IMG/VR virus record: IMGVR_UViG_2778261537_000017
Coordinates: 1-16,061 of that record
Length of the DNA stretch: 16,061 nt
DNA from: a virus
Taxonomy: Duplodnaviria > Heunggongvirae > Uroviricota > Caudoviricetes
Reading direction: 5' to 3' (one strand)
Of the stretch, positions 814 to 5,019 are shown piece after piece. Positions within the stretch are counted from its first letter, which is position 1. Every line of letters begins with the position of its first letter. The notes below the pieces were generated by a model. It was given only the letters and a program-made list of their open reading frames with translations. It did no database searches and was not told the DNA's origin. The position numbers and the translations under genes were made by a program.

Positions 814-1374
814 TTAGTGCATGCTGTTTGCCATCTCATAGGCGTCAGCCAGCAACTCCATCTCTGACTTGTTCAGCAAGGTGAATTCTTTCTTGCCTCC
901 AACCACACCATCGGCATGAACAGGGACCAGCCAGGGGTATTTTTCTCTTACTTCAGCCGGTGCTGCATGCTGGTGGTGCCATCTACAAAGTGGCAATTGC
1001 TTTTTGTGACAACCAGGCGCGGTACGACCGGAGATATGGTGCAGAGACACCTCTTCAGATATTACTCCATGCATATAGCAGGCAATGCAGGGGAGAGCGC
1101 CAAGAGCATTGGCTATGCGCCGCTCCTCCGCCGTCGGTGTTCGTCCCTTCAAGCCACGAGATTTTATTTTTACCGCGCTTTTCCGCGTTTTGCTGGCTGG
1201 TGGGCGCTCTTTCTGTTTAGCGATACGGCGGTCGATAGTATTCCGCATTTTCTGATATTGAGATTCTCGCCAGGCCGGATCAGCCAACTTCTCCCGTTGC
1301 CGAGCGATCGCTCGTTCTCTGGCTGCCTTCTGCCACTTACGGTGCTGTTCAATTTTTTGTTCGATTGTTTTCAT
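814..1374 (-). CDS. ref: Ref, recombination enhancement function (HNH-type endonuclease), 186 aa
   Basis: The track ORF 814..1479 starts at a TTG and reads through the promoter and a terminator hairpin. The ATG at 1374 gives MKTIEQKIEQ... and 186 aa, the size I recall for P1 Ref. C-terminal Cys/His-rich HNH-like region (CIACYMHG...SLHHISGRTAPGCHKKQLPLCRWHHQH). Confidence 0.85.
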   Translation of the reverse strand: MKTIEQKIEQHRKWQKAARERAIARQREKLADPAWRESQYQKMRNTIDRRIAKQKERPPASKTRKSAVKIKSRGLKGRTPTAEERRIANALGALPCIACYMHGVISEEVSLHHISGRTAPGCHKKQLPLCRWHHQHAAPAEVREKYPWLVPVHADGVVGGKKEFTLLNKSEMELLADAYEMANSMH

Positions 1375-1379
1375 ATGGC

Positions 1380-1405
1380 AAAAAAAAGGCGGCCTGATGG
1401 CCGCC
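1380..1405 (-). terminator. Intrinsic-terminator-like hairpin plus U8 in the ref leader, ending 5 nt before the ref ATG
   Basis: Plus strand is A8 (1380-1387) followed by GGCGGCC-TGAT-GGCCGCC (1388-1405). On the minus-strand RNA this reads GGCGGCCAUCAGGCCGCC UUUUUUUU GCCAU AUG. Confidence 0.5.
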
Positions 1406-1461
1406 AATGATGTCAAGGAGTTAAGTAATGGCAACGTCTTCGTAGTTGACAAAAACTGCGG

Positions 1462-1489
1462 CTCAATTATAGCAATCAATTAGAGCAAT
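1462..1489 (-). promoter_or_regulatory. Paired C1-repressor operator-like sites (Op2a/b-like) overlapping a TATAAT upstream of ref
   Basis: caatcaattagagcaat (1473-1489) matches the reverse complement of the P1 operator consensus ATTGCTCTAATAAATTT at 14/17; a weaker overlapping copy aattatagcaat lies at 1465-1476. The minus strand reads TTGCTATAATTGAG. Confidence 0.6.
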
Positions 1490-1595
1490 GGTAGAGATTT
1501 TGTTTATCGCGAATCACATTTTTTCACTTCAGTACCTGTGTGCTATACTCCTTCTTGATTGATTGGATGCGGAATACAAACCCGCTCTTTTGTGC

Positions 1596-1623
1596 AGCCT
1601 GGCTCCTTGCCAGGCTTTTTTTA
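1596..1623 (+). terminator. Plus-strand intrinsic terminator (8-bp stem, 5-nt loop, T7 tail)
   Basis: AGCCTGGC-TCCTT-GCCAGGCT followed by TTTTTTT. In the minus orientation the hairpin is followed by CACAAAAGAG, so it is effectively plus-strand specific. Confidence 0.5.
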
Positions 1624-1932
1624 TTTCATCATGGAAGCTGTTAATGCTTTGGACCTTGCTGAACTGATTGAGAGGGCTTTGTCAACGTGCCCCAAAAATT
1701 CGCCAAACTCAGACATCACTTTAGCAAAACCGCGCCGTGCTTCTTCCTCGGTGGCATTCATCACGAAATGTTCAGCACTACGCATACTTCTGACAGGGAA
1801 CGCAACGGATATTGAGTCAATATCAGGCATTCTATCGCTCAGCTTTACAGTGACAATGACGGCTGGCGACTGAATATTAGTGCTCACTGACAGCACTACA
1901 TATTTTCCGTCGATGTTGAAATTCTTTCTCAT
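1621..1932 (-). CDS. cra: Cra-like small protein (gene between cre and ref), 103 aa
   Basis: Complete ORF with ATG at 1932 and a GGTGA RBS. Sits where P1 has cra. Function assigned by position only. Confidence 0.6.
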   Translation of the reverse strand: MRKNFNIDGKYVVLSVSTNIQSPAVIVTVKLSDRMPDIDSISVAFPVRSMRSAEHFVMNATEEEARRGFAKVMSEFGEFLGHVDKALSISSARSKALTASMMK

Positions 1933-4167: not shown

Positions 4168-5019
4168 ATGATAAATTATGTCTACGGCGAACAACTGTAC
4201 CAGGAGTTCGTCAGCTTCAGGGATCTCTTTCTAAAAAAAGCTGTTGCACGCGCCCAACACGTTGATGCCGCCAGCGACGGTCGTCCTGTTCGCCCGGTTG
4301 TCGTTCTGCCGTTCAAAGAAACAGACAGCATTCAGGCTGAAATTGATAAATGGACTTTAATGGCGCGGGAACTGGAACAGTACCCAGACCTCAATATCCC
4401 AAAGACTATTTTATATCCAGTGCCTAACATCCTTCGCGGTGTGCGTAAGGTTACGACTTATCAGACAGAAGCTGTGAACAGCGTCAACATGACCGCTGGC
4501 CGCATTATTCATCTGATTGATAAGGACATTCGCATCCAGAAAAGCGCGGGGATCAATGAGCACAGTGCGAAATACATAGAGAACCTGGAAGCAACAAAAG
4601 AGCTAATGAAGCAGTACCCGGAGGATGAAAAATTCCGTATGCGTGTACACGGCTTTAGCGAAACAATGCTGCGCGTCCACTACATTTCCAGTAGCCCTAA
4701 CTACAATGATGGTAAATCAGTTAGTTACCATGTGCCGCTGTGTGGTGTGTTTATCTGCGATGAAACTCTCCGTGATGGAATCATCATCAACGGTGAATTC
4801 GAGAAAGCAAAATTTAGCCTTTATGACTCTATAGAACCGATCATCTGCGACCGCTGGCCGCAGGCAAAAATATATCGCCTGGCAGATATTGAAAATGTAA
4901 AAAAACAAATTGCCATCACTCGCGAAGAGAAAAAGGTCAAATCAGCCGCATCAGTTACGCGCAGCCGTAACACTAAGAAGGGGCAGCCAGTAAACGACAA
5001 CCCCGAAAGCGCGCAATAG
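4168..5019 (+). CDS. c1: C1 repressor of lysogeny, 283 aa
   Basis: Complete ORF MINYVYGEQLYQEFVSF... with a strong GGAGGAGG RBS. Length and N-terminus match P1 C1 as recalled, and cognate operator sites are present in the window. Confidence 0.9.
   Translation: MINYVYGEQLYQEFVSFRDLFLKKAVARAQHVDAASDGRPVRPVVVLPFKETDSIQAEIDKWTLMARELEQYPDLNIPKTILYPVPNILRGVRKVTTYQTEAVNSVNMTAGRIIHLIDKDIRIQKSAGINEHSAKYIENLEATKELMKQYPEDEKFRMRVHGFSETMLRVHYISSSPNYNDGKSVSYHVPLCGVFICDETLRDGIIINGEFEKAKFSLYDSIEPIICDRWPQAKIYRLADIENVKKQIAITREEKKVKSAASVTRSRNTKKGQPVNDNPESAQ

What the first reader, a model, noticed from the sequence alone, without database searches (positions are those of the whole stretch)
1380..1405. Terminator-like hairpin plus U8 inside the ref leader, 5 nt from the start codon
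On the minus-strand RNA a 7-bp GC-rich stem (GGCGGCC/GGCCGCC, 4-nt loop) is followed by eight U and then GCCAU-AUG of ref. This canonical intrinsic terminator lies downstream of the C1-operated ref promoter (TATAAT near 1468) and replaces any Shine-Dalgarno. Ref expression would then need read-through or antitermination and unusual translation initiation, or the hairpin mainly insulates ref from cre/cra transcription.
Basis: seen in the sequence. Interest (0 to 1): 0.5.

Follow-up and report, generated by a model that had tools for sequence, protein, structure and literature searches.

The report
Terminator hairpin in P1 ref leader
A strong, evolutionarily conserved transcription-stop hairpin lies between the repressor-controlled promoter and the start codon of the phage P1 ref nuclease gene, most likely to keep this host-damaging enzyme at a low level; ref attenuator control was already reported in 1988.

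Summary
On the minus strand, GGCGGCC-AUCA-GGCCGCC (1405-1388) is followed by U8 (1387-1380), GCCAU, then the ref AUG (1374). The hairpin folds at -16.2 kcal/mol. Only two hairpins this strong occur in the 16-kb window, and none occurred in 300 shuffles.

The window is a P1/P7-type phage-plasmid. The hairpin lies about 55 nt downstream of the C1-operated promoter P2ref, and ref has no Shine-Dalgarno.

Comparative data support function. In Salmonella/Klebsiella P1-like plasmids (Ref 65-67% identical), the same layout (operator, leader, hairpin, U-run, ref) uses a different stem, GACGGUC/GACCGUC. Two base pairs changed on both sides, with one G·U intermediate. RNAalifold finds only this helix.

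P1-like plasmids that lack ref still keep the promoter, leader and hairpin.

Best reading: a leaky intrinsic terminator that attenuates ref and ends cre/c8 transcription. A weak SD-less start lowers expression further. No conserved antiterminator or leader peptide was found.

The P1 record also predicts a promoter (P1ref) that would start inside the stem. It is absent from the outgroup.

Novelty is low. [quoted passage not shown]

The parts
1388..1405 (-). Terminator hairpin: GGCGGCC (1405-1399), loop AUCA (1398-1395), GGCCGCC (1394-1388)
   Evidence: Sequence; scanner; -16.2 kcal/mol, z -3.5; pair probabilities 0.975-0.997 in the long transcript; 99.2% of cells paired and 3 pairs changed on both sides across 18 leaders, none in slid controls; the only helix in the RNAalifold consensus.
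1380..1387 (-). U8 tract directly after the stem. It is the release element of the terminator, and in read-through mRNA it is the U-rich stretch at -13 to -6 where an SD would sit.
   Evidence: Sequence. Run length is 7-10 in ref-containing P1-clade relatives, 6 in ref-less plasmids and 5-8 in the outgroup.
1375..1379 (-). Spacer GCCAU between the U-tract and the AUG; no Shine-Dalgarno
   Evidence: Sequence. Relatives have GCCAT, GACCAT or ACCTT; the outgroup has 12-13 nt, also without a good SD, and some members start with GTG.
814..1374 (-). ref coding sequence (186 aa), RecA-dependent HNH nuclease
   Evidence: ORF; matches PDB 3PLW over residues 1-186 of both; annotated Ref in P1 and P7 records; Pfam PF16786 in homologs.
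1406..1459 (-). 5' part of the ref leader transcribed from P2ref (start site inferred near 1459-1457). Contains ACUCCUU at 1421-1415 and GUUGCCA at 1435-1429.
   Evidence: Start site inferred from the -10 position. Folds. The 5' stem and the GUUGCCA:UGGCGGC pairing are not well kept in relatives. A CUCC(U/C)..UGA motif recurs 5' of the hairpin in all clades.
1466..1471 (-). -10 hexamer TATAAT of promoter P2ref, preceded by TGC (extended -10)
   Evidence: Sequence; annotated as the P2ref -10 in AF234172 at the equivalent position.
1473..1489 (-). C1 repressor operator Oref (ATTGCTCTAATTGATTG)
   Evidence: Annotated protein_bind 'monovalent C1 controlled operator Oref' in AF234172 (P1 1962-1978), mapped onto the window through the gap-free alignment.
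1407..1434 (-). Predicted second promoter P1ref: -35 TTGCCA 1434-1429, -10 CATCAT 1412-1407 with TG at 1415-1414. The expected start is about 1401-1398, inside the 5' arm.
   Evidence: Annotated 'predicted sigma 70 promoter P1ref'; found by the scanner at 9 of 12; transcripts from 1401-1398 cannot form the hairpin (-3.4 to -5.5 kcal/mol); not present in the outgroup.
1621..1932 (-). c8 (103 aa), the upstream co-oriented gene whose transcripts would run into the hairpin
   Evidence: ORF; annotated c8 in P1 and P7; no U-tract follows its stop codon on this strand.

Best explanation
The element is a working intrinsic (Rho-independent) terminator inside the 5' leader of ref. It acts as a constitutive, leaky attenuator and as an insulator.

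RNA polymerase reaches it by two routes. It starts at the C1-operated promoter P2ref once C1 is inactivated, or it arrives from the unrepressed cre/c8 genes in the lysogen. Either way it transcribes a 7-bp G-C hairpin followed by eight U. Most complexes release there, giving a leader RNA of roughly 80 nt or ending the cre/c8 transcript. The minority that read through make ref mRNA.

That mRNA has no Shine-Dalgarno. Its AUG is preceded by the U8 tract and, 13 nt upstream, by the stable hairpin, so initiation is probably weak and of the U-rich, S1-assisted kind. Together with C1 and H-NS repression, this keeps a host-damaging RecA-dependent nuclease low in lysogens and modest after induction.

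Shown here: the structure, its stability, its rarity by chance, its position, its conservation with compensatory changes, and its retention without ref.

Inferred: termination efficiency, read-through as the main route to ref mRNA, and the mode of translation initiation.
For: Anatomy and stability. Rarity: 0 hits in 300 shuffles.

Position: downstream of the annotated C1 operator and P2ref, 5 nt from the AUG.

Conservation in the P1 clade: the stem is fixed while the loop (AUCA, AUUA, UAAA, GAAA, GCAA), the U-run length and the spacer vary.

Nearest outgroup (Salmonella/Klebsiella P1-like plasmids, Ref 65-67% identical): the same order, operator then leader then hairpin then U5-8 then ref. The stem is GACGGUC/GACCGUC, so G-C became A-U and C-G became U-A, with a U·G intermediate in one lineage.

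Formal count on 18 leaders: 99.2% of cells paired, 3 pairs changed on both sides, none in any slid control. RNAalifold finds only this helix.

Read-through: in the outgroup there are only 12-13 nt between the U-run and the start codon and no promoter match there, so an intact, conserved ref must be reached by read-through. In P1, ref mRNA rises 73-fold after C1 inactivation, more than any gene tested that C1 does not control, but less and later than ssb, dmt and kilA (PMC4713147). That fits transcripts from P2ref passing a leaky terminator.

Insulator role: c8 has no terminator of its own on this strand. Ref-less plasmids keep the hairpin between c8 and a convergent ant gene. In the Salmonella locus it is the only strong same-strand terminator after a run of co-oriented genes.

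Need for low expression: ref lowers lysogenisation 40-fold, enhances the SOS response, and is also bound by H-NS.
Against: - No transcript 3' or 5' ends for this region were available. The P1 RNA-seq papers I could read do not address it. Termination efficiency and read-through are therefore inferred.
- The predicted promoter P1ref could supply ref mRNA that bypasses the hairpin in P1-clade phages. Its TGnCATCAT element is kept throughout the P1 clade, including ref-less members.
- More distant ref genes (about 50% identity) have no leader terminator, so the arrangement is not a general requirement of ref.
- The 1988 title speaks of an 'antiterminator', which implies regulated rather than constitutive read-through.
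Confidence: 0.68

Rival explanations
1. Regulated attenuator. The hairpin competes with an alternative antiterminator fold, or is overridden by a phage or host factor, so that read-through into ref is switched on under particular conditions. This is what the 1988 title suggests.
For: The title of Windle, Laufer and Hays 1988 says 'attenuator-antiterminator control' (reference lists). In the nascent RNA, before the 3' arm is made, GUUGCCA (1435-1429) can pair with UGGCGGC (1406-1400). The outer pairs of a 5' stem overlap GUUGCCA, giving a formal 1:2 / 2:3 / 3:4 layout. That pairing is 83.7% kept on the 18-leader alignment.
Against: - The alternative is much weaker: -14.0 kcal/mol for the leader with the 3' arm blocked, against -23.4 with the terminator.
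- It is lost in most outgroup leaders (AUUACCA, AUUAGCU, AGCCUUA) and weakened by indels in some P1-clade variants.
- The 5' stem is only 71.5% paired, and RNAalifold reports neither helix.
- No conserved leader peptide exists. The frame that is open from TTG 1479 into ref is broken by indels and by a TAG in relatives.
- No Rfam family matches.
Confidence: 0.14
2. The promoter, leader and terminator form a unit of their own: a C1-repressed small RNA of roughly 80 nt made on induction. ref expression is a by-product of its read-through, or is driven by P1ref.
For: The constant unit across elements is operator/promoter, a leader of about 35-75 nt, hairpin and U-run. It occurs with ref but with a non-homologous upstream gene in the Salmonella clade. 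It occurs with c8 but without ref in E. coli and E. albertii plasmids and in at least six distinct viral-contig sequences, with the -10 and operator intact and GNRA loops. The 3' end (GC hairpin plus 6-8 U) has the form of Hfq-binding sRNA terminators. A CUCC(U/C)..UGA motif, the same sequence as the 16S anti-SD core, sits unpaired just 5' of the hairpin in all clades.
Against: - No RNA detection, no target and no Rfam family.
- All ref-less cases share one junction, so they are one event followed by recombination, and the leader may simply be left over.
- The anti-SD-like motif is altered to CUCCGU in most ref-less leaders.
- The leader 5' half is poorly conserved between clades.
Confidence: 0.1
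3. The hairpin does not matter for ref. ref is transcribed from P1ref, which starts inside the stem, and the hairpin serves only as the 3' end of cre/c8 and of abortive P2ref transcripts.
For: P1ref is annotated in the P1 record (predicted) and found by the scanner with a TG-extended -10. Transcripts starting at 1401-1398 cannot form the hairpin. The GenBank fragment M27041 begins at P1 2004 (window 1447), so it contains P1ref but not P2ref.
Against: - Oref does not overlap P1ref, yet ref mRNA is induced 73-fold on C1 inactivation, more than genes C1 does not control.
- P1ref is a 9-of-12 match with a poor -10.
- The outgroup has no equivalent promoter, yet it keeps the hairpin immediately before ref.
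Confidence: 0.07
4. Chance palindrome with no function.
For: None beyond the general frequency of loose terminator-like matches (8 found against 3.6 expected in 4 kb under lenient rules).
Against: No comparable hairpin appeared in 300 shuffles. Compensatory changes across clades and variable loops on a fixed stem point to selection on the structure.
Confidence: 0.01

Closest known systems
The ref 'attenuator' of phage P1 (Windle, Laufer and Hays, J Bacteriol 1988;170:4881)
   Same: Same gene, same phage family and same region. [quoted passage not shown] This is the only strong same-strand terminator-like hairpin found anywhere in the window, and it lies between the ref promoter and the AUG. 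The GenBank fragment M23246 cited in the P1 record ends at P1 2063, which is window 1388, the last base of the stem.
   Different: I could not read the paper, so the identity of their attenuator with this hairpin is inferred. The window differs from P1 by a loop base (AUCA against AUUA). The cross-clade covariation and the ref-less elements are new observations as far as I can tell.
Leader attenuators of bacterial operons (trp, his, pyrBI type)
   Same: An intrinsic terminator placed between promoter and first codon, so that expression depends on read-through.
   Different: There is no conserved leader peptide and no conserved antiterminator helix. The terminator nearly abuts the start codon and takes the place of the SD.
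Early terminators of lambdoid phages overridden by N or Q
   Same: Terminators close to repressor-controlled early promoters limit expression of downstream phage genes.
   Different: No nut- or qut-like element was sought or seen, and to my knowledge P1 has no known processive antiterminator. The distance to the gene is 5 nt. The outgroup data suggest passive leak rather than factor-driven override.
sRNAs derived from 5' leaders by premature termination; P1/P7 C4 antisense RNA as a precedent for small RNAs in this phage
   Same: Own promoter, short transcript, GC hairpin plus a long U tail, and retention without the downstream gene in some relatives.
   Different: No evidence of a stable RNA or of a target. 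C4 is processed from a longer transcript and is unrelated in sequence. No Rfam hit in the window.
SD-less translation initiation assisted by U/A-rich leaders and ribosomal protein S1
   Same: There is no SD, U8 lies at -13 to -6, and the start of the coding region is A-rich and unstructured.
   Different: Not tested. A -16 kcal/mol hairpin sits at the upstream edge of the ribosome-binding region.

Membership tests
Intrinsic (Rho-independent) terminator | G+C-rich stem of about 5-11 bp with a loop of 3-8 nt | tested here: met
   7 G-C pairs, 4-nt loop, -16.2 kcal/mol.
Intrinsic (Rho-independent) terminator | U-tract of at least 5-6 nt starting 0-2 nt after the stem, on the transcribed strand | tested here: met
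   U8 begins directly after the stem on the strand of ref, c8 and cre. On the + strand the same palindrome is followed by AAUGAUG, so it works in one direction only.
Intrinsic (Rho-independent) terminator | Structure kept by selection (compensatory changes) | tested here: met
   G-C to A-U and C-G to U-A, with a U·G intermediate, between the P1 clade and the Salmonella/Klebsiella clade. 99.2% of cells paired, and no pair changed on both sides in slid controls.
Intrinsic (Rho-independent) terminator | RNA 3' ends in the U-tract, in vivo or in vitro | not testable with these tools
   No transcript-end data in the papers I could read.
Leader attenuator with alternative antiterminator | Terminator located between the promoter and the start codon of the regulated gene | tested here: met
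   P2ref -10 at 1471-1466, hairpin 1405-1388, AUG 1374. Same order in the outgroup.
Leader attenuator with alternative antiterminator | Conserved, mutually exclusive antiterminator helix | tested here: inconclusive
   GUUGCCA:UGGCGGC is possible in the window and in most P1-clade leaders. It is 83.7% paired overall, lost in most outgroup leaders, and absent from the RNAalifold consensus.
Leader attenuator with alternative antiterminator | Leader peptide ORF whose translation sets the fold (for the ribosome-mediated class) | tested here: not met
   The only open frame through the leader (TTG 1479 into ref) is broken by 1-nt indels and a TAG in close relatives, and it has no counterpart in the outgroup.
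Terminator-ended small RNA (Hfq-type 3' module) | Own promoter plus an intrinsic terminator with a long U tail, giving a short discrete transcript | tested here: met
   P2ref to U8 gives a predicted 78-80 nt. This is a sequence prediction only.
Terminator-ended small RNA (Hfq-type 3' module) | Kept independently of the downstream gene | tested here: inconclusive
   Kept in ref-less plasmids and viral contigs, but all share one junction.
Terminator-ended small RNA (Hfq-type 3' module) | Detected stable RNA, Hfq binding, or a target | not testable with these tools
   No data. No Rfam family matched.
C1-controlled P1 transcription unit | C1 operator (consensus ATTGCTCTAATAAATTT, from my own knowledge) overlapping the promoter | tested here: met
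   ATTGCTCTAATTGATTG at 1489-1473, annotated Oref in AF234172. Operator-like sequences sit at the same place in the outgroup and in Pantoea alvi.

The most novel reading that the evidence does not exclude
The C1-operated promoter, the short leader and the terminator together form a mobile unit that makes a small RNA of roughly 55-80 nt when the repressor is inactivated, and this RNA has a function of its own. On this reading ref is one of several things that can sit behind the unit. The unit is found with ref but with an unrelated upstream gene in the Salmonella clade, and with c8 but without ref in a lineage of E. coli and E. albertii phage-plasmids. An unpaired CUCC(U/C)..UGA motif lies next to the terminator in every clade.
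Probability: 0.1. Interest if true: 0.55.

Novelty: already known. Interest (0 to 1): 0.28.

Why it matters
Ref is a RecA-dependent HNH nuclease that damages the host chromosome, enhances the SOS response and underlies phage-antibiotic synergy (PMC4713147). How tightly it is held down, and how it is released on induction, therefore matters for P1 biology and for the very common P1-like phage-plasmids of E. coli and Salmonella (700 plasmid records matched this region).

The leader terminator adds a third layer of restraint to C1 and H-NS, and the SD-less start adds a fourth.

What this analysis adds to the old observation is comparative. Compensatory changes indicate that the hairpin is under selection as a structure. 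The outgroup leaves read-through as the only visible route to ref. The promoter-leader-terminator unit can persist without ref.

None of this overturns current understanding.

Tried and rejected
1. Primary papers: Windle 1988, Lu 1989, Lobocka 2004, Gruenig 2011 and Laufer 1989 are not held. Only the title and the GenBank notes could be used.

2. Rfam at gathering threshold on the whole window: no match.

3. N-terminally extended Ref or a leader peptide: the ORF listing gives a 221-aa ORF from TTG 1479 that runs through the hairpin in the ref frame. It is rejected because relatives carry frame-breaking indels (GACCAT, GTGCC, T7-T10) and a TAG.

4. Antiterminator GUUGCCA:UGGCGGC and the 5' stem: counted on the alignment and not kept in the outgroup.

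5. Long-range pairing of leader ACUCCUU (1421-1415) with AAGGAGU (1551-1545), or with the CAAGGAG loop of the c8-proximal hairpin: by eye on alignment A1, changes on one side (AACGAGT in L018; loops AAGAGG, AAGATG, AAGGAA; CUCCGU in ref-less leaders) are not compensated. I dropped it.

6. Perfect TTGACA at 1416-1411 as a -35: 17 bp downstream lies GCCGCC, so there is no -10. Rejected.

7. Leader terminator as a general ref feature: not so. Chromosomal-prophage ref genes follow an upstream gene with an SD. E. coli, Enterobacter and Pantoea lineages at about 50% identity have other upstream regions.

8. P1 RNA-seq papers: nothing on this leader.

9. The Pantoea alvi hairpin aligns one column out of register in A3, so the G-C to C-G change at pair 4 should not be counted. 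The other two covarying pairs are in register.

Full report
**What the window is.** The region holds cre (3014-1983, minus), a 103-aa gene (1932-1621), a 186-aa gene (1374-814) and c1 (4168-5019, plus). A 401-nt query across the finding matches phage P7 at 97% and P1 at 96%. It also matches 700 plasmid records, 64 of them at 99% or better. The 186-aa protein aligns over its full length with the solved P1 Ref protein, PDB 3PLW.

**The observation.** It is exactly as described. On the minus strand the order is:
- GGCGGCC, 1405-1399
- AUCA, 1398-1395
- GGCCGCC, 1394-1388
- U8, 1387-1380
- GCCAU, 1379-1375
- AUG, 1374-1372

The scanner scores it 7 of 7 G-C pairs with a 4-nt loop. It folds at -16.2 kcal/mol and takes 80% of the ensemble. 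It is still formed with probability 0.975-0.997 inside a 269-nt c8-to-ref transcript. Under strict rules only two sites in the 16-kb window qualify on either strand, and none appeared in 300 dinucleotide-preserving shuffles. No SD-like purine run precedes the AUG.

**Regulatory context.** The P1 record annotates the following:
- The C1 operator Oref, equivalent to window 1489-1473 (ATTGCTCTAATTGATTG).
- Promoter P2ref, with its -10 TATAAT at 1471-1466.
- A second, predicted promoter P1ref: -35 TTGCCA at 1434-1429 and -10 CATCAT at 1412-1407.

No terminator is annotated there. From P2ref the start site should be near 1459, so the hairpin begins about 55 nt into the transcript, and a terminated product would be 78-80 nt.

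Its -10 ends one base before the stem, so its transcripts would begin at about 1401-1398. They would lack most of the 5' arm and could not form the hairpin (-3.4 to -5.5 kcal/mol).

On this strand the c8 stop codon is followed by a hairpin without a U-tract. Transcripts from cre and c8 should therefore also run on to the ref-leader hairpin.

**Close relatives.** Among 80 viral-contig loci encoding Ref at 94-100% identity I found 49 distinct leader sequences.
- The 14 stem positions are fixed, apart from C-to-U changes at the base of the 3' arm in a few sequences.
- The loop varies (AUCA, AUUA, UAAA).
- The U-run is 7-10 nt.
- The spacer is GCCAT, GACCAT or ACCTT.

These indels also break the reading frame that, in the window, is open from TTG 1479 through the hairpin into ref. 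That frame is therefore not coding.

**Elements without ref.** Some plasmid matches end at query position 319, which is window 1382, the end of the U-run. In pE2865-1 and E. albertii pEA13_2, cre and c8 are followed by the operator, -10, leader and hairpin (loop GAAA) plus T6. Then, 3 nt later, comes the stop codon of a convergent antirepressor gene preceded by an icd-like gene. There is no ref.

A 15-mer scan of viral contigs found at least six distinct ref-less leader sequences, with GAAA or GCAA loops. Some have P1-type 5' halves, and all share the same junction. In these elements the hairpin is the only terminator between c8 and the convergent operon.

**Distant relatives.** Ref homologs extend to about 45% identity across Enterobacterales.

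The nearest outgroup is a set of Salmonella and Klebsiella P1-like plasmids at 65-67% identity. Its layout is a C1-type operator overlapping TATAAT, a leader of about 60-70 nt, the hairpin GACGGUC-UUCG/UACG-GACCGUC (GGCCGUC in one lineage), U5-8, 12-13 nt without a good SD, and then GTG or ATG of ref.

Compared with GGCGGCC/GGCCGCC, pair 2 has gone from G-C to A-U. Pair 6 has gone from C-G to U-A, with a U·G intermediate.

On an 18-leader alignment the helix is 99.2% paired. Three pairs show changes on both sides, and none does in any of six slid controls. One of the three comes from the Pantoea alvi row, which is a column out of register, and should be discounted. RNAalifold on the same alignment predicts this helix and nothing else.

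P. alvi has a third stem (GCCGCC-UCCG-GGCGGC, U7). It lies about 35 nt after a near-consensus operator but about 100 nt before ref.

In the Salmonella locus:
- The gene upstream of the operator is unrelated to c8.
- No promoter match lies between hairpin and start codon.
- The hairpin is the only strong same-strand terminator in 3.4 kb.

Ref genes at about 50% identity, and those in chromosomal prophages, have other upstream regions, often with an SD and no terminator.

**Alternative folds.** Before the 3' arm is made, GUUGCCA (1435-1429) can pair with UGGCGGC (1406-1400). A 5' stem overlaps GUUGCCA, giving a formal attenuator layout. Three results speak against it:
- The alternative is about 9 kcal/mol weaker than the terminator state.
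- It is kept in only 83.7% of cells and lost in most outgroup leaders.
- The 5' stem is only 71.5% paired.

I could not support a regulated switch from sequence, and I could not exclude one that depends on a factor.

**Mechanism.** The best-supported reading is a constitutive, leaky terminator with two jobs. It ends transcription coming from cre/c8 and from P2ref, and it lets only a fraction through into ref. ref is then poorly translated because it has U8 in place of an SD and a stable hairpin 13 nt upstream.

Published data fit this (PMC4713147):
- ref mRNA rises 73-fold after C1 inactivation. [quoted passage not shown]
- ref reduces lysogenisation 40-fold and is also bound by H-NS at CGATAAA. 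This sequence is at window 1509-1503.

Since Oref does not overlap P1ref, the C1 dependence argues that much of the induced ref mRNA starts at P2ref and passes the hairpin. That step is inference. No transcript-end data were available.

[quoted passage not shown] Their GenBank fragment M23246 ends at P1 2063, which is window 1388, the last base of the stem. I could not read the paper. Even so, the finding is almost certainly their attenuator.

It meets all the sequence criteria of an intrinsic terminator. It meets the positional criterion of a leader attenuator, but not the leader-peptide criterion, and the antiterminator criterion is inconclusive.

**Verdict.** It is already known in substance.

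The new points are comparative: covariation across clades, read-through as the only visible route to ref in the outgroup, and persistence of the promoter-leader-terminator unit without ref. The last point leaves open, at low probability, that the leader RNA has a role of its own.

Noticed in passing
window 1596-1623 (+), with 1521-1549 (+): A second strong terminator-like hairpin lies on the + strand (AGCCTGGC-TCCTT-GCCAGGCT plus T7), back-to-back with the ref-leader one and abutting the c8 stop codon. It would stop transcription running antisense to ref, not c8 transcription. A TG-extended promoter-like site (TTTTCA-17-TATACT) lies about 47 nt upstream, so a + strand RNA of roughly 65-70 nt is conceivable (fold -23.2 kcal/mol, z -2.7)..
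   Followed up: partly
window 1545-1620: The non-coding c8-ref spacer is almost invariant among P1-like elements (alignment A1). It contains AAGGAG (1551-1546) with no start codon at SD distance. The reason for this conservation is unknown. The H-NS site CGATAAA reported in PMC4713147 lies just downstream, at 1509-1503.
   Followed up: no
L082 2042-2071; L083 2793-2822; also L093, L112, L141, L164, L173: A lineage of P1-like phage-plasmids (E. coli pE2865-1, E. albertii pEA13_2 and several viral contigs) has no ref. A convergent icd-like gene plus a KilAC-domain antirepressor module ends 3 nt after the T-run of the retained leader hairpin, whose loop has become a GNRA tetraloop (GAAA or GCAA)..
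   Followed up: partly
window 1421-1411; L224 about 2450-2462; L207 about 1300-1314: A CUCC(U/C)..UGA motif (ACUCCUUGA in the window) lies unpaired just 5' of the hairpin in the P1, Salmonella/Klebsiella and Pantoea alvi clades. Its core is the same sequence as the 16S rRNA anti-SD. In the window it also spells a perfect TTGACA, but no -10 follows it..
   Followed up: partly
L006, L008, L129 (about 95 nt upstream of the ref ATG): In these contigs the left half of the C1 operator is replaced by ...TTCCGTTTTCTGAGACGACCCC. This looks to me like a Tn21-family transposon end (from memory, not tested). If so, an insertion into Oref could derepress ref. L165 and pPK8568 (L084) have other transposon insertions that cut the leader before the hairpin..
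   Followed up: no
window 814-1479 (-): the ORF listing reports a 221-aa ORF because the ref frame stays open upstream through the hairpin to TTG 1479. This is an accident of this sequence: indels and a TAG break it in close relatives..
   Followed up: yes
L224 2501, L227 2501, L232 1195: Several Salmonella-clade ref genes begin with GTG and have no good SD, so weak translation initiation seems to be a shared property of ref in the clades that carry the leader terminator..
   Followed up: no
The P1 record names it c8 (putative establishment of lysogeny). cra is the 73-aa ORF upstream of cre..
   Followed up: yes
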